From a virus (lineage: Duplodnaviria; Caudoviricetes): a stretch of 51,212 nt of DNA. The translations under genes were made by a program, and so were the position numbers. The stretch spans positions 1 to 51,212 of IMG/VR virus record IMGVR_UViG_3300048598_000511; one strand, written 5' to 3'. Shown here piece by piece: positions 19,284 through 51,212 of this stretch. How positions within the stretch are numbered: the first letter of the stretch is position 1; each line of letters begins with the position of its first letter. Under the pieces are notes generated by a model. That model saw only the letters and a list, made by a program, of their open reading frames with translations, ran no database searches and was not told the origin of the DNA.

Positions 19284-19798
19284 CCCACAACCCCGCCGCC
19301 CGCACCGTCGTGACCGTCGAGGACCTCAAGCCGATCCACGTCCGCGGCACCCAGATCCGCATCCCGGATCTGCACATGCCAGGCCTGGACTTCGACGCGC
19401 CGCACGTCACCGTCACCGGACGCCTGTACTCGATGCGGAGGACCCTCGGCGGCTGGCTGCTCGACGTCCGCCGCACCCATGCCGGTCCGTCGCTGCTCGA
19501 CACCCCGATACCAGGCACCCACCCGTGCTACCTGGTGCGGGAGGATCCGCCGCCAGCACCTGAGCCCGAGGCTATCCCGTTCGACTGGGAGGAAATCGTG
19601 ACCCGCCCGAACCCCGCCGCCCGTGTTCGTGCCGCCAAGCAGGCCCGCGAAGTCCGCCAGTGGCAGGAGGTGTCCGCCCGCGTCTCGACCTCCATCCACT
19701 GCGACAACCACCCTGACCGCACCGCAGTCCGCTACCACCCCGCCACCGGGGAGCGGTTCTGCGCCGAGTGCGAAGCAAGCCGAGAGGAGCAGCCGTGA
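19280..19798 (+). CDS. Hypothetical protein with C-terminal B-box-like motif
   Basis: CDNHPDR...FCAEC. Confidence 0.6.
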   Translation: MTHNPAARTVVTVEDLKPIHVRGTQIRIPDLHMPGLDFDAPHVTVTGRLYSMRRTLGGWLLDVRRTHAGPSLLDTPIPGTHPCYLVREDPPPAPEPEAIPFDWEEIVTRPNPAARVRAAKQAREVRQWQEVSARVSTSIHCDNHPDRTAVRYHPATGERFCAECEASREEQP

Positions 19799-20652
19799 AT
19801 CCGATTCTGACCGTGCTCGCGGGCAGCCATGCCCACGGCATCAACACTGCGACGAGCGACTACGACTACCTGTCCGTCGCCGTGGCCCCGCTGGAGGTGA
19901 CGCTCGGCATCGCCCCGCCGCTCAAAACGACCCAGACCCGCACCGCACCGCAAGGTGTCCGGTCGTCGGCCGGTGATGTGGAGACGACCACCTACGAACT
20001 CCGGCACTTCATGCAGCTCGCGACCCAGGGCAACCCGAACATCCTCGTCCCGCTGTTCGCCAACCCCGAGCACGTCATCCATGCGACGCCGCTGGGTATG
20101 TCACTGCGCGCGCTGGCGCCGTCCATCGTGAGCATGCACGCGGTGCGCCGTCACCTCGGCTACCTCGACGCTCAGCGCGGCCGCATCACAGGCAACGGCC
20201 CACACCAGGCGCGCAAGCCGAACCGGCCCGAACTGGTGGAGGCGTACGGCTACGACACGAAGTACGCCGCCCACGCACTGAGGCTGGCGTGGCAGGGCAT
20301 CGAACTGGCGCAGTTCGGTCGGCTGAACCTGCCCATGCCGACCTTCGAGTGCCGGGTGCTGCGCGGCATCCGGGCGGGCGAATGGACTGAGTCGCGAGTG
20401 CTGGAGGAGATCGACGCGACACGGGCTGAGCTGGTCGCCTTCCTCGAAGGCAAGCGCCCGGTCGCCCTCCACCCCGAACCCGACTGGCCGGCCATCAACC
20501 GCTGGCTCATCAAGGCGCAGAAGGAGCAGCCGCGAAGACCCGCACCACCATCCTCAGCACCGAGGTGGACGACTTCGACGCCGCCATCGGCTTCCTGGTC
20601 GAGCACAAGCCCGAACTTGGCCCAACCCCGTACATGGAGGTGCTGCCCATGA
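19795..20652 (+). CDS. Pol-beta superfamily nucleotidyltransferase (Nuc-transf/RlaP-like)
   Basis: GSHAHG...SDYD, GNPNIL, YDTKYAAHALRL; ancestral stop probably at 20533-20535. Confidence 0.85.
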   Translation: MNPILTVLAGSHAHGINTATSDYDYLSVAVAPLEVTLGIAPPLKTTQTRTAPQGVRSSAGDVETTTYELRHFMQLATQGNPNILVPLFANPEHVIHATPLGMSLRALAPSIVSMHAVRRHLGYLDAQRGRITGNGPHQARKPNRPELVEAYGYDTKYAAHALRLAWQGIELAQFGRLNLPMPTFECRVLRGIRAGEWTESRVLEEIDATRAELVAFLEGKRPVALHPEPDWPAINRWLIKAQKEQPRRPAPPSSAPRWTTSTPPSASWSSTSPNLAQPRTWRCCP

Positions 20653-33277: not shown

Positions 33278-33580
33278 GAAGTAGCACCGATTGGTCCGCT
33301 CCCCAACGTGTGCCGCGGGGGCCGCGATCCCAAGGGTGCCGAGCGCCACGGCTTTACCAGCCGAGTCGTACACCGTCACCTGAGTCCCGCTGCGAATGTC
33401 CGCATAGCCTCCGCCACTCAAGGGGCAGGAATCGGCGGATCGAACCGCCTCGTATTGCCCGGAGTTCAGCTGAAGGGTTCCGCCGACGCTGAATGTCCCG
33501 CCCCCGCAGCCTGCGGTCAGTAGCAGCAGGGCCGGAATGGCTGCCCTCTGAATCACCACTCGCACCCCTTCACGTCCCAT
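33152..33580 (-). CDS. Antisense-oriented lipoprotein (moron-like)
   Basis: Lipobox LTAGC; GGYADI..GTQVTV.D...C.F.F....VP....YSVEISHRG; true start probably GTG near 33556-33559. Confidence 0.75.
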   Translation of the reverse strand: MGREGVRVVIQRAAIPALLLLTAGCGGGTFSVGGTLQLNSGQYEAVRSADSCPLSGGGYADIRSGTQVTVYDSAGKAVALGTLGIAAPAAHVGERTNRCYFSFDVAGVPEGSAIYSVEISHRGRVQFTREQLREVIDLKIGS

Positions 33581-33611
33581 TCCTCAAGCATGCCTGAACG
33601 GAGGCGGAACC

Positions 33612-36600
33612 GTGACTGATCGCTCCATCTTCGTGCGGCTCGGCGCCATCGCCTCCGGGCTCAAGAGCGGCTTCAAGGACGCTTCGGCGGCGGCGAAGCA
33701 GACAGCGACCGATATCGAGGCTGCCGGCAGGAAGTCGGAGCAGGCGGTCGAGAAGACTGCCGCGAAGGTGCCGCTGATCCAGCGCGCGCTCAACGGCCTC
33801 AGCTCGGCTTCGGCCGCCACGTCGAAGTGGGTCACGAAGAACCGCGACGAAATCGACAAGCTGGCGTCGGCGGGTCTGGTCGCGGGCGGCCTCATGGCAG
33901 CAGGCGCAGCGATCGCGGCCAAGAAGTACGCCGACTTCGACGAAGCCATGTCCCATGTCGCCGCGACCGGCAGCGATGCCCGAGCGAATCTCGGCGCGCT
34001 CCGCGAGGAGGCCATCAAGCTCGGCGCCGACACCGTCTTCTCGGCCCAGGAGGCCGCGCAGGGCATTGAGGCCATGGAGAAGGCCGGCGTCTCCGCGAAG
34101 GACATCCTTGGCGGCGGGCTCCAGGGCTCACTCTCTCTCGCCGCGGCGGGCGAACTGTCCGTCGGTGACGCGGCCGAAGTGGCAGCCACCGCCCTCGTCC
34201 AGTTCGGCCTGTCCGGCACCCAGATGAACCACGTCGCGGACCTCCTCGCTGCTGGTGCCGGAAAGGCGCAAGGCGAGGTGTCCGACCTGGCGCTCGCGCT
34301 GAAGTACGTCGGCCCGGTCGCCTCCGGAATGGGTGTCAGCATCGAGGAGACAGTCGGTGCACTGGCTGCCTTCGCGTCACAAGGCATCCTGGCGGACCAG
34401 GCAGGCACGAGCCTGCGCGGCGTGCTCGCTGCACTCACCAGCCCCTCATCGCAGGCCGCCGGCGAGATCGAGCGGCTCGGAATCACCCTGTACGACAGCA
34501 ACGGAAAGTTCCTCGGGCTGGCGAACGTCGCCGGGCAGCTCCAGAAGGCGTACTCCGGCGTGACCGACCAGGCCAAGGATGCCTCGCTCGGCATCCTCTT
34601 CGGCAACCAGCAGGTGACCGCGGCGCGCGTCCTATTCGACCAGGGCGCGAAGGGCATTCAAGACTGGACTGACAAGGCCAACGACGCCGGATATGCGGCA
34701 ACCGCCGCAGCGACCCGAATGGACAACCTCAAGGGCGACGTCGAGAGGCTGTCCGGCTCCATCGACTCCGCGCTCATTCAGTCCGGGACTGGCATCAACA
34801 CGTTGCTGCGGAACACCGTCCAGAGCGCGGAATCCATCGTGGATGCGGTCGGCCAGATCCCTCCGGGAATCCTGGGCGTAGTCACCGCACTGGCCGGGTC
34901 CGGTGGCCTTGGCGTCCTCGGGGTCTCCGCACTCGGAAAGCTGCTCGTCGGAATCAACGACGCAAAGCTGGCTTTGGTGTCACTCACCGGATCAGCCAAG
35001 GCTGCAGGGCTCGCCGCTGGCGCCCTCGGCGCCGTCGTCGGCATTGGCGCCCTCGCCATCTCAAAGTGGGCATCCGACGTAGCGACCGCGCGCGCCAACG
35101 CCGACGATTTTGCGGCAACCCTCGTCGTCATCAACGGCAAGATCGCATTCTCAATGGCAACCGTGAGTTCGATCAACGACAAACTCGCGAATACGAAGAC
35201 AATGTTCGGGTTTGGGCCGACGCTGCTCGACCTCATGAACAAGGTAGGCATCTCGGCAGCCGATGCGCAGGGCTTCCTCACCGACGAGGCGGAGGCTGTC
35301 GATCGCGTCAATGCGGCCATCGATATCTACACCAAGCAGCATTGGCTCGACGCGAGCATGACCACGACTCCGCTTCTCAAGGCACTGACGGACCTCAAGG
35401 GGAGCATGTCAGATGCTGAGCGGACGACCCTCCAGAAGGCGCAGGCGGACAAGGAGGCCGGGTCTGCTGCGGACAGCAACGCGACCGCTCAGAAGACGAT
35501 CACCGCCTACCTGACGGACCAGACGGATGCTCTCGGTAACGCCACCACACTCCTGAAGGACTATGAGACGGCACTGTGGAACGCCGCCACGGCCGCATTG
35601 AAGCTGTCCGGGTCGGAGATTGGATTCCGTCAAGCTGTCGCCGACGCAAATAAGGGCATCAACGACAAGGGCCACAAGGGAAAGGGTGTCGATACCCACA
35701 CCCAGGTTGGGCGCGATAACCAGAGCGACCTGAACCAGATCGTGACGTCCGGGAAGACCCGGATCAACGACATCCTCGAAACTGAGGGCAAAGGCAAGAA
35801 GGCTGTAGCGGCGATGAAGGAACTCCGCGAGAGCTTCATCGCCGCCGCGACGGCCGCCACTGGGAGCAAGGCGCGGGCGGTCGAGATGGCTGATGCCCTG
35901 AAACTCTTCCCGAAGAACGTCGACACCGAACTCACCTTGAAGGACCAGGACGCCCAGGCCGAACTCGGAACGTTCAAGGAACTGCTCACGGGGCTCCCGA
36001 AGGAAACTCAGGCCCGCATCATCGCGGACTACAACGACAAGGGCGCCAAAGCAGCCTACGACGATCTGAACTCGCTCGATGGTGCCACCGCTGACGCGTG
36101 GGTGAACTCGCTGCTGGATCAGAAGGGCATCAAAGGCTGGGAGAACTGGTCGCCGGCGAAGAAGCGTGCCGCGATCCAGCCGTACCTGACCGACTCCGAG
36201 ATCAACCTCAAGGTCAAGGTCACGATGCGCAACCAGCCGAAGGATGCCGCCGAAGGTGGACTCTTCGCCCGCAGCGCTCTGGTCTCGGCCGGGCTTGGTC
36301 TTGTCCAGGAGTTTGCCGACGGCGGCTTCCCGGCGATCGGTTCTCAGCAGTCTCAGATTCAGCGCACGCGGCCCGGTGGCATCCGGTGGGCGGAGGACAC
36401 CACGGCTGACTGGGAGGGCTTCGTGTCAGGGCACCCTGGCAAGATCCACCGCTCTCGCGCGATCACCAGCGAGATCGCTCGGCGCCTCGGTGGGGTGGCC
36501 AGTTTCGCGGAGGGCGGCTTCGCGGGTGACCCTGCGCTGGCCCGTCTGATCGCGAGCGGTCGTGCATCCGCGCTCGGCACGACGCATGTCACGAACATCA

Positions 36601-46679: not shown

Positions 46680-48550
46680 GCAAGGCCCGCTGGTATCGGG
46701 CAGCCCTCAACTCGACCAGCAAAGCTCGCTGGTACCGGGGCGAACTGTCGGGCGGCATCTCCAGCAAGGCCCGCTGGTACCGTGCCGCGCTCAGTGGCGC
46801 GTCCGCGGTCAGGGGCTGGCTGTGGACCGGCACCGGCTGGATGCCGCGCACCGCGAAGTACGTCACCCCGGCCGACCTGCCCTGGGTCGCGCCGGCCGCG
46901 GTCGTGGCGGGTGCGGCTGCGCTGGGCTCCACCAGCTATCCCATCCCCACCAGCAATGCGGTGTACCTGTCCACCACAGGCTCAGACTCCGCATCCGGGA
47001 CGGTCGCCGCACCCAAAGCCACCCTCGCCGGCGCGCTCGCCGCGATCAGCGCGGGCGGCACCATCGTCGCCCGTGGCGGCACCTACCTCGACGCTTTCGG
47101 CGAGGGTGCCATCACCAAGAGCTTCACCCTCCAGTCCTACCCGGGCGAAGCCGTCTGGTTCGACGGCTCGGTCGTCCTGACCGGCTGGACGTACGACACG
47201 GCCGCAGGGAAGTGGTGGGCGCCCTCCACCACCGAATGGGACCACTCGGACCCCTCCGGTATCGCCGGCACCCTCAACCCTCTCGCCCTGTGGCGCGACC
47301 TCCTCTTCCGCGACGGCGGGCGCCTCTTCCAGGTCTCCTACCCGCCCGCAGCCGGCCAATTCTCCGTCGACTACGACACCGACCGGGTATGGGTCGGCGA
47401 CGACCCGACCGGCCACGAAATCCGGATCACCACCAAAGCCCGATTCGCCCTCATCCAAGGCCCCGACACCACCCTGCGTGGCATCGGGGTCCGCCGCTAC
47501 ACCACCCCGAGCTGGGGCGGGTCAGTCCAGGTCGTCGACGCCGCGAAACGGACCCGCATCGAGCACTGCCACCTCTACGACATCTCCTCCCTGGCCATCG
47601 ACTCCGACAATGCGGTCATCACCCGCAACACTGTGTCGCGCGGAAACACGATCGGGCTCGGCGGGAATGTGGGCTCCGACTGCGAATGGTCCGCCAATCT
47701 GGTCGAGGGGTCGAACCAGAAGCTGCTGCAGAATCATGTGCCGTCGGCGATGAAGATCACCAAGCACACCCGGCCGATCATCAAGGACAACGTCTTCCGC
47801 GACACCCTGTACGGCATGGGCATCTGGCTTGACGTGTCCTGCTACCAGCCCGTCATCACCGGCAACCTCATCCGCAACAGCGCCGGCAACACCACCACCT
47901 CGGGCAATGGGATCTGGGTCGAGCTCACCGAGGGCGGGCTGATCGCCAACAACCGCTGCTATGGGGTCGGCGACAACGCCAAGTACGGGCTCGCGTCCTA
48001 CAACTCCGGTGGGCAGATCTGGATCAACAACTACGTGGAGGGCTACCGTCTCGGCGGCATCTTCCTCGGCGGCGACACCCGGCGAAACACCAGCGTGTCC
48101 GGCGACGGTATCGACTGGTCCCTCATCCCGTGGTACGACCACGACATCCAGATCATCAACAACGTCCTCGGCCAGAACACGCTGTACTTCCAGCTCCTGA
48201 CGGGCGCGGACGGGCTGACCACGCAGGCGATGGTGACCCGCATCGAAGGCAACCTGTCCTGCTCCCGGCCAGCCGGCGCATCGGTGCACGACGCCCTGGT
48301 CGGCTGGGTCGCGACCGTCGGCGCCAGCCGCACCATCTACACGACCTGGGCCGCCGCGGCCACCGCGTGGCCAGGGCTCGGGCTCGCCAACAACAGGCTC
48401 ACCGGCAACGTGCCGCCCACCACAGGCGACGCGACCACAGCCGCCGCGACCGCCGTGCCACTCGACACCACCACCGCCACCGCACTCGGAGTACCCCTCG
48501 GCTACCAGGCAGTCGGACCCATCCTGCCCGCACCCGTCACCACCACCTGA
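46676..48550 (+). CDS. Right-handed beta-helix protein, putative polysaccharide depolymerase
   Basis: YLSTTGSD..SGT...P, RGGTY, YPGEAVWFDGS, GIWLD, Asn-ladder repeats. Confidence 0.8.
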   Translation: MSKARWYRAALNSTSKARWYRGELSGGISSKARWYRAALSGASAVRGWLWTGTGWMPRTAKYVTPADLPWVAPAAVVAGAAALGSTSYPIPTSNAVYLSTTGSDSASGTVAAPKATLAGALAAISAGGTIVARGGTYLDAFGEGAITKSFTLQSYPGEAVWFDGSVVLTGWTYDTAAGKWWAPSTTEWDHSDPSGIAGTLNPLALWRDLLFRDGGRLFQVSYPPAAGQFSVDYDTDRVWVGDDPTGHEIRITTKARFALIQGPDTTLRGIGVRRYTTPSWGGSVQVVDAAKRTRIEHCHLYDISSLAIDSDNAVITRNTVSRGNTIGLGGNVGSDCEWSANLVEGSNQKLLQNHVPSAMKITKHTRPIIKDNVFRDTLYGMGIWLDVSCYQPVITGNLIRNSAGNTTTSGNGIWVELTEGGLIANNRCYGVGDNAKYGLASYNSGGQIWINNYVEGYRLGGIFLGGDTRRNTSVSGDGIDWSLIPWYDHDIQIINNVLGQNTLYFQLLTGADGLTTQAMVTRIEGNLSCSRPAGASVHDALVGWVATVGASRTIYTTWAAAATAWPGLGLANNRLTGNVPPTTGDATTAAATAVPLDTTTATALGVPLGYQAVGPILPAPVTTT

Positions 48551-48567
48551 CAGCCACCCCCGAAGAC

Positions 48568-48608
48568 AGCGGCCCTCACCATCACGGTGAGGGCCGCTTT
48601 TATGCTTT
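48568..48608. terminator. Intrinsic terminator between convergent units
   Basis: AGCGGCCCTCACC-N5-GGTGAGGGCCGCT then TTTATGCTTT. Confidence 0.85.
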
Positions 48609-48732
48609 CCCCCGGGCAGTGGCGGGGGGCAATCCCTGGCCAGTTGGCGATTGTCGGCTCACCCCCGCATTCGGCGGGGAAGTTGCGCAATCGCCCGTCT
48701 CCGTGGGCTCACCTCCGCTTGGCGGAGAAGTT
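48601..48732 (-). CRISPR. Cas-less mini-array of type I-E-like repeats (2 clear + 1 degenerate), 20- and 21-nt spacers
   Basis: Minus strand AACTTCTCCGCCAAGCGGAGGTGAGCCC (48732-48705) and AACTTCCCCGCCGAATGCGGGGGTGAGCCG (48684-48655); degenerate CCCCCG-N8-CGGGGG hairpin at 48628-48609. Confidence 0.72.
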
Positions 48733-48741
48733 GGCCCGATG

Positions 48742-49317
48742 CTACTCCGGCCCGTCGCCGTCCGCAGCGAATGTGAAGCCAGCCTCACGCAGCCACCGGT
48801 AGATGGTCTGTCGGCTCACGTCCGCAGCACGGCATAGTGGCGCGATCTTCGCCCCTGCCGTGTACGCGTCCGCGACCGCGACCCGCAAGGCCCGTGTCGC
48901 CACCTCCACGCCGGCCGCGGCGTCCACCACACCCTGCAGCGGGGCCGGCCTGCCGCCCTGCACGGTCGGGACGCTGCTGCCAGCACCCCGGCAGACCTCC
49001 GCCATCGTCACGTGCAGCATCCGCCTCCCGGCGATCCGCTCCAGCGCTGCGGTCGCGAGGCCGGTCTCCTCGACATCCAGACCCCACCGCTTGGCGTCGG
49101 CCTTCACGACGTAGCTGGCACCGACCCGGTGCCCGCCGCCGTGGTGGTAGGTCTCGGCGACCAGCTCGCCATCCTCAGCGACGATCACACCACGGCGCGG
49201 GTCACCGATCCGCTTCGCCTCCTCGGCCCACACTGCCAGCGGGCCAGCAGTGTCCGGGTCGCCGCCTGCCCGGGCGATCCGCGCCCGGGCCTGATCAGTG
49301 AAGTACGTGTGGGTCAT
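48742..49317 (-). CDS. Unknown N-terminal domain + C-terminal HTH (Aca-like autoregulator candidate)
   Basis: LRVAVADAYTAGAKIAPLCRAADVSRQTIYRWL. Confidence 0.75.
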   Translation of the reverse strand: MTHTYFTDQARARIARAGGDPDTAGPLAVWAEEAKRIGDPRRGVIVAEDGELVAETYHHGGGHRVGASYVVKADAKRWGLDVEETGLATAALERIAGRRMLHVTMAEVCRGAGSSVPTVQGGRPAPLQGVVDAAAGVEVATRALRVAVADAYTAGAKIAPLCRAADVSRQTIYRWLREAGFTFAADGDGPE

Positions 49318-49607
49318 GACCGGACATACAGCTCGTGACGCAGCGAGCTGATCTGGCGACCGAGCTCGTCGGACGTCCGGATCGCCACGGTGTGCCGCTC
49401 GATCTCCTCAACGGTGAGGTCACGCTCGGCCTCGGTGTCCTTGAAGGCCTTGTCGTCGGCATCGGCAGAGAACTTCGCGGTCTCCAGCACGTACAGCGCC
49501 AGGGCCACGTCGCCGTCGGTGATCCCGGCGAGGGTGGCGTCGTCGTTCGTGCGGTCTGCGCGGACGATCGTCTTGACCAGGGCCTGCGCTTCGGTGGTGC
49601 TCATCAT
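49314..49607 (-). CDS. Small acidic helical protein (Acr candidate)
   Basis: SD GGAAGG, D/E-rich 97 aa, ATGA-coupled to the HTH gene. Confidence 0.7.
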   Translation of the reverse strand: MMSTTEAQALVKTIVRADRTNDDATLAGITDGDVALALYVLETAKFSADADDKAFKDTEAERDLTVEEIERHTVAIRTSDELGRQISSLRHELYVRS

Positions 49608-49638
49608 TTTCGTGCCTTCCTCTTCTTGGTGATTCTTC

Positions 49639-50001
49639 TCAGTAGCGACCGGTGAGGGAGTCGATCATCGAGGAGGCCTGACGGCGGGTGAGGCGGCTCA
49701 GGTCCATGTCGGCGCGCAGGGAGAGGAAGCCGCCTTCGAGGTGCTTGCCGTCGCGGATCAGGGACCGGATGAAGCTGATCTGGCGCTCGGTGGCCATCGG
49801 CTCGGCGGACCGGACGGGGCTCGTCTTGGCCTGCGCGGCCTCCTGGCGGCGGCCCAGCGTCATCTGGATGAAGGCCGCGTCCTTGGTGGTCCACGCGGTC
49901 AGCTCAGCGAAGCTGCCGACGATCCGGCTGCCGAACTCGGCGCGGATGGCCTCGGCGGTGGTGTCGTACTTGGCCGGGTAATCCTTGATCGAGATCTGCA
50001 T
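49639..50001 (-). CDS. Small protein, first gene of leftward operon (Acr candidate)
   Basis: SD AAGGAGG; ATERQISFIRSLI...LTRRQASSMIDSL. Confidence 0.75.
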   Translation of the reverse strand: MQISIKDYPAKYDTTAEAIRAEFGSRIVGSFAELTAWTTKDAAFIQMTLGRRQEAAQAKTSPVRSAEPMATERQISFIRSLIRDGKHLEGGFLSLRADMDLSRLTRRQASSMIDSLTGRY

Positions 50002-50016
50002 GTCGTCCTCCTTGGT

Positions 50017-50056
50017 GTGTAACACCATCATACACACATAGTGTAACGCCATGCAA
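50017..50056 (-). promoter_or_regulatory. Strong sigma-A promoter overlapped by 12-bp direct-repeat operators
   Basis: TTGCAT-N18-TATGAT (with TG upstream of -10); ATGG(C/T)GTTACAC at 50052-50041 and 50028-50017. Confidence 0.8.
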
Positions 50057-50085
50057 CACTTTCGAGGAGAAATCTCGACCGACCT

Positions 50086-50334
50086 TCACCACCTCAGCGA
50101 CCGCCGCACATCCCGCTTCGGCAACCACGACTGCCTGACCGTGCCACCTCGCTGCCACTCCACCTTCACCGCCGCACCATCCACCCACAGCAGATGCGCC
50201 GGCACCACCTCCACATACTGCGGCCACACCAGACGGACCAGCACCAGCAGGCGACGGCCGTCATGACCCGAGCGCCAACCCGGCGGCTCCCACACCGAAT
50301 TGCGAGGGGCCTGGAAGAGCGGGTCGGCAGGCAT
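50086..50334 (-). CDS. Small beta-rich protein, probably SOS-inducible
   Basis: VRLVW...V.VEW......SWLP..DVRR; leaderless ATG 6 nt after TACCTT. Confidence 0.65.
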   Translation of the reverse strand: MPADPLFQAPRNSVWEPPGWRSGHDGRRLLVLVRLVWPQYVEVVPAHLLWVDGAAVKVEWQRGGTVRQSWLPKRDVRRSLRW

Positions 50335-50347
50335 GGATGGAAGGTAA

Positions 50348-50363
50348 TCGAACAAGAGTTCGA
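50348..50363. promoter_or_regulatory. Perfect actinobacterial LexA box
   Basis: TCGAAC-AAGA-GTTCGA. Confidence 0.85.
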
Positions 50364-50377
50364 CACGCTAGGCCGGA

Positions 50378-50800
50378 TCAGCAGTAGGCGAGATCCCGGA
50401 TAACTTCCTCGGCGTCTGCCCGCTCCGCATGAGTATGGGCCGTGTGGTCCTGGGCGATCTCGTGGAGCGCGGCGCTGGTCATCTGGAGCATCGAGACGAA
50501 GAGATCCTGCTCCGGGAGCGGCCCGGTGCCGCGGGCCAGCGAAAGGCCGCCCGCGTGGACACTCAACTCGGCGTCGGCGCCCGCCGAGTTGGCCACGAGG
50601 TATGCCTCCATGTCATCCACCTCGGACGCACACAGGAAGTCTGCCTGCTCCCACGTCAGATCGACGGCGAGCCAGAGATCGAAGGGCTCCGTGTGCCCGA
50701 GCATCAGCCAATGCAGGCGGGGCGAGCCATCTTTGACGTCCAGCCAGGTGGTCGCCCGCCCGTTGTGGTAGTCCAGCACCACACGCTCGTCAGCAGGCAT
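50378..50800 (-). CDS. Acidic hypothetical protein (antitoxin/immunity candidate)
   Basis: SD GGAGG; VLDYHNG motif; directly downstream of 50805-51212 ORF. Confidence 0.6.
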   Translation of the reverse strand: MPADERVVLDYHNGRATTWLDVKDGSPRLHWLMLGHTEPFDLWLAVDLTWEQADFLCASEVDDMEAYLVANSAGADAELSVHAGGLSLARGTGPLPEQDLFVSMLQMTSAALHEIAQDHTAHTHAERADAEEVIRDLAYC

Positions 50801-50804
50801 GCGC

Positions 50805-51212
50805 TCACTCACCTCCCCTGAATGCACGCTCGAATCGTCTCACTTCCAGATAATGCCACGCTTCCACTAGCGAGGGAACAGTGACGCTTATGTGGTTGGG
50901 TACGCGTCGCGTCGGCGTCCTGGTCACGATGAAGCCCTCTAGGCGAAGCCTCCCGACCGTCGTATAGCGCACCGTCGCGTACGGTGGGGCAGCCCTTCGC
51001 AGGACCAGAGCGGCAGCCTCGGACGGCTCCAACCGCCCCTCCAGCAGCGAGATGTCCGTCTCGCCAGAGTCGAACCGCGGCGACTGGCGAAACGGTGGCA
51101 CGCTGATGAGCTGCCCGTACTGGGTCAAGGCGCACCCATCGAGCAACGGCCCCCCATCCGACACCGCCGACACCGCCGGCACCGCCGGCACCGGCAGCAA
51201 ATGGCGGCTCAT
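50805..51212 (-). CDS. Hypothetical protein, possible ADP-ribosyltransferase-like toxin
   Basis: FR.S..D...IS, VRYTTVGRLR..GF.V..TP....PNHISV; start at the window edge is uncertain. Confidence 0.5.
   Translation of the reverse strand: MSRHLLPVPAVPAVSAVSDGGPLLDGCALTQYGQLISVPPFRQSPRFDSGETDISLLEGRLEPSEAAALVLRRAAPPYATVRYTTVGRLRLEGFIVTRTPTRRVPNHISVTVPSLVEAWHYLEVRRFERAFRGGE

What the first reader, a model, noticed from the sequence alone, without database searches (positions are those of the whole stretch)
48601..48732. Prophage-borne type I-E CRISPR-like mini-array with 20/21-nt spacers and no cas genes
Seen on the minus strand, starting about 10 nt after the HTH gene stop: AACTT-CTCCGC-CAA-GCGGAG-GTGAGCCC, a 20-nt spacer (ACGGAGACGGGCGATTGCGC), AACTT-CCCCGC-CGAAT-GCGGGG-GTGAGCCG, a 21-nt spacer (ACAATCGCCAACTGGCCAGGG), a degenerate CCCCCG/CGGGGG hairpin, then the terminator. 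The two repeats differ by a compensatory C-G/T-A stem change. Known: this 5 nt + 6-bp stem + 8-nt handle layout is that of type I-E repeats (E. coli GTGTT-CCCCGC-GCCA-GCGGGG-ATAAACCG). Cas6e cuts at the stem base, and each Cas7 covers 6 nt of a 32-nt spacer. Inference: host Cas6e would release a ~50-nt crRNA mimic whose 20-nt guide is exactly two Cas7 units short. That would give an interference-deficient Cascade acting as an RNA anti-CRISPR (Racr-like decoy) or as a guide for transcriptional silencing.
Basis: partly seen in the sequence, partly recalled or inferred. Interest (0 to 1): 0.93.

Follow-up and report, generated by a model that had tools for sequence, protein, structure and literature searches.

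The report
Phage guide RNAs aimed at cas3
A temperate phage with no cas genes carries a tiny imitation of a bacterial CRISPR array whose second short guide matches the end of the cas3 gene in its likely host genus, so it probably turns the host's CRISPR complex into a brake on the host's own cas genes, a trick recently described for promoters but here apparently also aimed inside a gene.

Summary
Two type I-E-like repeats, 20- and 21-nt spacers and a degenerate third hairpin end a small HTH operon of a 51-kb temperate phage with no cas genes (0 such units in 300 shuffles).

Host: seven spacers of one Propionibacteriaceae I-E array match the phage at 26-31 of 32, which points to that genus (Propionicimonas).

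Repeat 1 has the stem variant of that family's cas-regulating mini-arrays (CreR), seen in 0 of 56 ordinary arrays. Spacer 1 fits the CreR profile (p about 0.001-0.004), but no target was found.

Spacer 2 matches the 3' end of cas3, 93 bases before the cas8e start (10-nt seed, 15 of 18, AAA PAM). It does best at that same site in all three I-E loci of the genus; 1 of 5000 mock spacers did as well.

Most likely this is a Cracr-type RNA (Liu et al. preprint) that both occupies Cascade and represses the cas operon. The target inside a coding sequence is the new twist. It rests on relatives of the host and on a rare PAM. Expression and processing are untested. The scan found such arrays before on other DNA.

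The parts
48705..48732 (-). Repeat-like unit R1; CTCCGC/GCGGAG stem as in first repeats of host CreR-like elements; GTGAGCCC handle
48685..48704 (-). Spacer 1 (20 nt); fits the family's CreR spacer profile with TTG at positions 15-17; no nucleotide target found
48655..48684 (-). Repeat-like unit R2; ordinary CCCCGC/GCGGGG stem, GTGAGCCG handle
48634..48654 (-). Spacer 2 (21 nt); matches the 3' end of cas3 in the I-E loci of the host genus, antisense to the cas mRNA
48601..48633 (-). Degenerate terminal repeat R3 (6-bp stem, 8-nt loop, no handle); Cas6e cutting doubtful
48568..48598 (.). Perfect 13-bp hairpin terminator between the array and the converging tail gene; T-run on the plus strand
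48663..48712 (-). Predicted mature RNA 1 (50 nt: handle, spacer 1, R2 hairpin); inferred from the type I-E cut site
   Evidence: inference; folded
48609..48662 (-). Predicted mature RNA 2 (54 nt if R3 is cut, longer if not); inferred
   Evidence: inference; folded
48742..49317 (-). 191-aa gene: unknown N-terminal domain of about 115 aa plus C-terminal HTH; likely autoregulator of the operon (Aca-like position)
49314..49607 (-). 97-aa gene of unknown function in the same operon; Acr candidate by position only
49639..50001 (-). 120-aa first gene of the operon, no homologue found; hit by a G275 CRISPR spacer at 30 of 32; Acr candidate by position only
50007..50056 (-). Likely operon promoter (TTGCAT, 18 nt, TATGAT) with repeated GTTACA boxes and a ribosome site; both hexamers and spacing kept in related phage L370; read by eye, below the scan's threshold
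   Evidence: not found

Best explanation
The array is likely a Cracr-type anti-CRISPR RNA: likely transcribed as the tail of the HTH operon, it would be cut by the host's Cas6e into two short guides predicted to load a Cascade two Cas7 short, which would tie up Cas proteins and repress the host cas operon, guide 1 probably at the cas3 promoter and guide 2, which matches the 3' end of cas3 in the likely host genus, just before cas8e. Shown: anatomy, absence of cas genes, matching repeats and CreR-like elements in the host family, host link by spacers, and the spacer 2 match. Inferred: transcription, processing, loading, the target of guide 1, and repression.
For: Host: of 1784 spacers from family I-E arrays, 9 match the phage at 26 or more of 32, and 7 of these are from G275 (31, 30, 29, 27, 27, 26, 26); reversed spacers reached 26 once. 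Cas8e was found in 3 genomes of that genus (G275, G374, G395). CreR-like elements lie upstream of cas genes; 7 of 8 tested have an AAG/AAC/AAT-flanked seed match there, and in 3 of them positions 15-17 cover a -35-like TTG. R1 shares their stem variant (0 of 56 array repeats have it). Spacer 1 scores on a 5-spacer CreR profile above all but 0.08% of mock 20-mers (0.04-0.4% in seven other profile choices). Spacer 2 matches G395 cas3 over positions 1-10 and 15 of 18 pairing positions beside AAA; its best site in G275 (14 of 18) and G374 (13 of 18) is the orthologous one. The G395-level match was reached by 1 of 5000 mock and 2 of 5000 shuffled spacers in the three loci. The guide would pair with the non-template strand, the orientation that repressed inside genes in E. 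coli (PMC4288209 passages). Related phage L370, also hit by G275 spacers (two at 32 of 32), keeps promoter, HTH, a repeat and a terminator in the same order.
Against: The true host genome was not available. No seed-plus-PAM target for spacer 1 was found in 75 cas loci, the phage itself, or 151 genomes (11 scattered 2-mismatch hits, none on a contig where cas8e was found). No CreR with spacer 1's seed turned up in 401 genomes or the genome collection. The AAA PAM is rare for this system: 1 of 25 protospacer rows, and 7 of 306 G275 repeats end in A. In G275, the genome linked to the phage, the spacer 2 site has a seed mismatch at position 5. Against all 75 loci the spacer 2 match is less rare (48 of 5000 mocks). 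Unlocked R-loops are unstable and may be weak roadblocks. Spacer 2's seed is complementary to spacer 1 over 8 nt and to R3, which could hide it. 3 of 4 related phages lack any repeat in the 8-kb flank.
Confidence: 0.6

Rival explanations
1. Pure decoy (Racr-like): the RNAs only occupy Cas6e, Cas7 and Cascade; the spacers need no target and the cas3 match is chance or a relic.
For: No target found for spacer 1. L370 has one repeat and a hairpin with no target found. Both predicted RNAs fold back on their seeds. Seed-mutated Cracrs were still thought to compete for Cas proteins.
Against: The 5' handle is intact, unlike RacrIF1. Spacer lengths are the -12 class that assembles well. The spacer 2 match is rare in controls and orthologous in three loci. 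Spacer 1 keeps a CreR profile.
Confidence: 0.2
2. Self-attack: the guides direct weak Cas3 cutting or primed adaptation at the host's own cas3, selecting lysogens that lose or damage the cas locus.
For: Spacer 2 matches a coding sequence, not a promoter. E. coli -12 guides gave weak interference and shortened guides primed (PMC5159557). Spacer 1 translates in one frame to GDGRLR, found exactly in G275 Cas3 about 250 nt upstream of the spacer 2 site (0.6% of mock 20-mers hit any genus Cas protein so).
Against: StCascade -12 gave no Cas3 cleavage. The GDGRLR site is only 12 of 20 identical in DNA and has no AAN PAM (read by eye). Chromosome cutting would endanger a prophage's host.
Confidence: 0.07
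3. Captured, decaying copy of a host CreR element with no present function.
For: Degenerate R3; absent from 3 of 4 related phages; T-poor terminator on the array strand.
Against: Two perfect stems and handles; two spacers of the same short class; same slot used in L370; 43 of 86 units found in IMG/VR loci have 20-21-nt spacers (the search pattern favoured these lengths).
Confidence: 0.08
4. Mini-array for competition with other phages or for control of the phage's own genes.
For: Known role of viral mini-arrays (PMC11656645 passages).
Against: Spacers are 20-21 nt against 32-33 in host arrays. No PAM-flanked self match. The spacer 1 pattern gave 3 IMG/VR hits, none beside an AAN PAM with AA at -3/-2. 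Spacer 2 was not searched in IMG/VR.
Confidence: 0.05

Closest known systems
Cracr arrays, in particular the Salmonella prophage CracrIE array (Liu et al., bioRxiv 10.1101/2024.10.29.618823)
   Same: Prophage-borne, no cas genes, three repeat-like units with a defective last one, two short spacers (24 and 21 nt there), 8-nt handle, predicted target in the host cas locus; 16 two-spacer I-E arrays listed, Actinomycetota among hosts.
   Different: Published Cracrs were found by likeness to a CreR/CreA spacer and target promoters. Here no CreR with the same seed was found, and spacer 2 matches inside cas3. Table S2 could not be seen, so this array may be listed there.
CreR host autoregulatory mini-CRISPRs (Liu et al., bioRxiv 10.1101/2023.03.10.532045; Shmakov et al., 10.1101/2023.03.03.530964)
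   Same: First repeat keeps the handle, last keeps the hairpin; short spacer; the Salmonella target lies about 140 bp before casA, a distance like spacer 2's 93-114 bp.
   Different: Host-encoded inside the cas locus with one spacer; this one is on a phage with two.
Racrs, solitary repeat units (Camara-Wilpert et al., PMC10651486)
   Same: Phage-encoded repeat mimic at the end of an acr-like operon; competes for Cas proteins.
   Different: Racrs are solitary, and RacrIF1 acts through a product without the 5' handle that forms a Cas6-Cas7 filament; here there are two spacers with intact handles and a target match.
Viral mini-arrays for inter-virus competition (reviewed in PMC11656645)
   Same: One or two spacers, no cas genes, reliance on host Cascade.
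   Different: Those have host-identical repeats and spacers against related viruses; here repeats are diverged, spacers short, and no viral target was found.

Membership tests
Cracr array (type I-E) | On a virus or plasmid, outside any CRISPR-Cas locus | tested here: met
Cracr array (type I-E) | Repeat-like units resembling the host's I-E repeat, handle kept | tested here: met
   R1 scores 23 of 28 against the G324 array repeat and 20-21 against genus repeats; R2 21-25 (global alignment scores)
Cracr array (type I-E) | Two or more different short spacers | tested here: met
   20 and 21 nt against 32-33 in 1385 of 1423 host spacers
Cracr array (type I-E) | At least 9 PAM-proximal bases shared with a host CreR/CreA spacer | tested here: inconclusive
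   No such CreR in 401 family genomes or the genome collection; one genome per species, true host missing; spacer 1 fits the profile only
Cracr array (type I-E) | PAM-flanked target in a cas or creT promoter | tested here: inconclusive
   Spacer 2 has a PAM-flanked target in the cas locus but inside cas3, with no clear promoter there; spacer 1 none found
Cracr array (type I-E) | Cas6-dependent maturation and seed-dependent repression | not testable with these tools
   needs small-RNA sequencing and reporter assays
Racr (solitary repeat unit) | A single repeat with no second copy within 100 bp | tested here: not met
   two full units 48 nt apart plus a degenerate third
Racr (solitary repeat unit) | Inhibition by sequestration, independent of a target | not testable with these tools
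   may act in addition; needs seed mutants
Viral competition mini-array | Full-length spacers matching related viruses | tested here: not met
   20-21 nt spacers; no PAM-flanked viral hit for spacer 1; spacer 2 not searched in IMG/VR
acr-aca operon | Small genes and an HTH regulator behind a promoter with operator repeats | tested here: met
   (promoter read by eye and by conservation in L370)
acr-aca operon | A gene related to a known Acr or Aca | tested here: inconclusive
   no match in PHROGs, Pfam, PDB sequence or fold searches; the N-terminal domain was not folded alone

The most novel reading that the evidence does not exclude
The phage locks the host cas operon at two points: one short guide copies the host's promoter-silencing CreR, and the second, taken from cas3 itself, parks a non-cutting Cascade inside cas3 just before cas8e, where it blocks elongation into all Cascade genes (or pairs with the mRNA there). 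This would be a natural in-gene CRISPRi that does not depend on copying a host regulator and that targets a protein-constrained site the host cannot easily change.
Probability: 0.35. Interest if true: 0.72.

Novelty: new variant of a known kind. Interest (0 to 1): 0.5.

Why it matters
The class is known, so the array alone is a good new example. The added point is a testable target inside the cas3 reading frame. Shmakov et al. filtered viral-spacer hits to intergenic DNA and arrays, and Liu et al. searched by likeness to CreR/CreA, so in-gene targets would have been missed. If real, some of the viral spacers listed as having no target may hit cas coding sequences, and phages could evolve such guides without capturing a host regulator. 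It also shows CreR-like elements over the cas3 -35 box in Propionibacteriaceae.

Tried and rejected
Rfam: 0 matches. The sigma-70 scan found no promoter in 48000-51212. DNA context for the 30 HTH homologues could not be had: single-protein scans found none and alignment scans gave mostly C-terminal HTH hits (12 viral, 4 metagenome loci), of which only L005 showed a repeat. The full AACTT-type repeat pattern gave 0 viral and 4 genome hits, none a CRISPR array. Sequencing runs: no RNA holder listed; one DNA run held 0.07 of the words and, when laid, did not cover the array; this says nothing on expression. First target scan left out AAA PAMs and missed the spacer 2 site; it was found and rescored. 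The collection-wide scan for the spacer 2 target gave 97 hits, about what chance gives; I read only the titles of the 80 listed, and did not test them for cas genes. Other viral short spacers did not beat mock spacers against the 75 loci (53 spacers scored including the two of this array; one other reached 15 of 17), so in-gene targeting was not shown to be general; most of their hosts are unknown. A cas8e match for spacer 1 (14 of 17, no PAM) was set aside as chance. An internal cas8e promoter was looked for by eye: a TAYGAT lies about 30 nt before cas8e in 7 clade members, with no -35. The HTH protein's N-terminal domain found no known fold or Acr, and 0 of 3 examined stand-alone homologues in the family (4 loci found) have a repeat beside them. 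The 120-aa protein has no homologue. Two rows of the repeat alignment (G374, G297) had wrong coordinates and were not used. No complex prediction was run.

Full report
Context. The window is a whole 51,212-base virus record of a temperate tailed phage with 67% G+C: integrase, antirepressor, terminase, portal, capsid and tape measure are recognised by PHROGs. The left end carries what reads by eye as the 3' half of a tRNA-Ala gene, which matches three actinobacterial genomes with 0-1 mismatch. The closest integrase found is 60% identical, in a Micropruina record. At the right end a minus-strand operon of three genes (120, 97 and 191 aa) runs towards the last tail gene; the array fills the gap between its HTH gene and a shared hairpin.

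Observation. Two units with a perfect 6-bp stem and handle occur in the window, both here, against none in 300 shuffles. No cas gene was found. The terminator's T-run is on the plus strand, so termination of the array transcript is less sure. A promoter-like pair of hexamers (50056, 50032) with repeated operator-like boxes precedes the operon; the scan did not call it, but related phage L370 keeps both hexamers, the 18-nt spacing and the order DUF7011 gene, promoter, small genes, HTH gene, I-E-like repeat, terminator. Three of the four phages found with the same tail-region protein lack any repeat in the 8-kb flank, so the module is accessory.

Host. Cas8e was found in 75 of 401 genomes of the Micropruina record's family; I fetched one locus for each and longer arrays for seven. 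Of 1784 spacers, 9 match the phage at 26 or more of 32 bases, 7 of them from G275, while reversed spacers reached 26 once. G275 spacers also hit L370, twice at 32 of 32. The genus of G275 has 68 genomes, and Cas8e was found in G275, G374 and G395. A record titled Propionicimonas sp. (L433) holds the same cas3 site as G395. G275 is a relative of the host and need not be the host. PAMs in 25 protospacer rows were AAC 10, AGC 4, AAG 3, AAT 2, AAA 1, four others and one cut off.

Repeats and spacer 1. Several family loci carry a one-spacer element upstream of the cas genes. Seven of eight tested have a seed match beside AAG, AAC or AAT in the region before cas3 (cas8e for L315); in three, positions 15-17 are a TTG followed 17 nt after the hexamer by a -10-like box (boxes read by eye). 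These fit CreR as described (10.1101/2023.03.10.532045, abstract and passages). The first repeat of many has the CTCCGC/GCGGAG or CTCTGC/GCAGAG stem, which 0 of 56 array repeats have, and phage R1 has it. Spacer 1 has TTG at 15-17 and beats all but 0.08% of mock 20-mers on a profile of five such spacers, 0.04-0.4% under seven other choices; the profile was built after I saw the likeness. No actual target or twin CreR was found. A rival clue is that one frame of spacer 1 reads GDGRLR, present exactly in G275 Cas3 (0.6% of mocks hit any genus Cas protein), but with 12 of 20 bases and no PAM.

Spacer 2. A search of five genus genomes gave 14 seed hits (5 in the control), one of them just upstream of cas8e in G395. 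There the minus strand reads AAA then ACAATCGCCAGTTGGCCGGCA: positions 1-10 match and 15 of 18 pairing positions. The site is in the cas3 frame at the motif GQLAIVF, with the PAM 93 bases before the cas8e start. The best AAN site in G275 (14 of 18) and G374 (13 of 18) is the same one. With the rule seed 1-10 and 15 of 18, 1 of 5000 mock and 2 of 5000 shuffled spacers hit the three loci; against all 75 loci it was 48 and 14 of 5000. The genus was fixed before this hit was seen, which justifies the narrower test, but two spacers were tried and the rule was set from the hit. Against it: AAA is a rare PAM here, G275 has a seed mismatch, and the seed can pair with spacer 1 (8 nt; 0.24% of shuffled pairs, 0 of 15 other viral pairs) or with R3.

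Mechanism. From established type I-E processing, Cas6e would cut at the stem base and give RNAs of 50 and about 54 nt with 8-nt handles (inferred). StCascade complexes 12 nt short formed R-loops without the higher concentration needed for -6 and -18, stayed unlocked and gave no Cas3 cleavage (PMC6859484 passages). E. coli -12 guides let phage and plasmids in, with only weak plasmid loss (PMC5159557 abstract and first results section). Such complexes can bind without killing. Cascade repressed strongly at promoters and moderately inside genes when aimed at the non-template strand (PMC4288209 passages); guide 2 would pair with that strand, on my reading of their wording. I therefore put 0.6 on sequestration plus repression, 0.2 on decoy only, and less on self-attack, decay or phage competition.

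Known systems. Liu et al. (10.1101/2024.10.29.618823; abstract, two results sections, discussion, part of the supplemental legends) describe 219 Cracrs, 16 two-spacer I-E arrays and a tested Salmonella array with 24- and 21-nt spacers. Shmakov et al. (10.1101/2023.03.03.530964; passages and the viral section) predicted such arrays from intergenic matches. Racrs (PMC10651486 passages) are solitary. The array works like a Cracr array; two defining tests are inconclusive. In IMG/VR loci, 43 of 86 units had 20-21-nt spacers (biased by the pattern, and the scan covered 28 of 64 parts), and the scan's own notes list eight like cases on other DNA. I found no report of an in-gene target in two searches or in word searches of two of the preprints; this is a narrow search, and bioRxiv supplements, above all Table S2, were not seen and may list this array or such targets.

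Verdict. A real feature of a known kind, with one supported but unproven twist: a guide aimed inside cas3. New variant of a known kind; interest 0.5.

Noticed in passing
window 48809-48826 (minus strand), inside the HTH gene: An 18-nt stretch coding for part of the HTH is 89% identical to the 3' part of R2 plus the first bases of spacer 2. Chance or a trace of the repeat's origin; unexplained.
   Followed up: no
window 48687-48695 and 48646-48654: Spacer 1's 3' half and spacer 2's seed are complementary over 8 nt and extend the R2 hairpin in the predicted fold; not seen in 15 other viral spacer pairs.
   Followed up: partly
L370:12018-12047 (same phage as L005:1430-1458): Related phage with one I-E-like repeat whose 3' side is a terminator hairpin starting about 22 nt after the handle; a Racr-like or terminator-ended guide; no target found.
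   Followed up: partly
L164 (IMGVR_UViG_3300045589_000088) and L315: A viral 20-nt spacer shares its first 14 bases with the CreR-like spacer of G106: a clear Cracr candidate in this family.
   Followed up: no
L532 (G278:C120, about 900-1000): A CreR-like I-E element sits after a tRNA gene as in G275 and G374, but is followed by an array with a different repeat, and no cas8e was found in this genome.
   Followed up: no
L533 (G369:C44, about 33550-33700): I-E-like mini-array away from the cas contig, in a mobile-looking region, with two similar short spacers that have TTG at or near positions 15-17.
   Followed up: no
L001, L002, L003 (position about 1500): Streptomyces genomes carry solitary I-E-like repeats with the CTCCGC stem start and a GACTT 5' end; L001 and L002 lie between non-cas genes, and L002 has a 32-nt spacer and a degenerate second repeat.
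   Followed up: partly
L257, L264, L266, L269, L270, L305: CreR-like elements upstream of cas3 with full-length 32-33-nt spacers and a T-A stem variant in the first repeat.
   Followed up: no
window 48973-49317; L541, L542, L544: The HTH protein's N-terminal domain of about 115 aa is a widespread unnamed family, often stand-alone; in the host genus it ends small element-like gene clusters.
   Followed up: partly
window 19768-20652: RlaP-family nucleotidyltransferase gene (PF10127) among the early genes.
   Followed up: no
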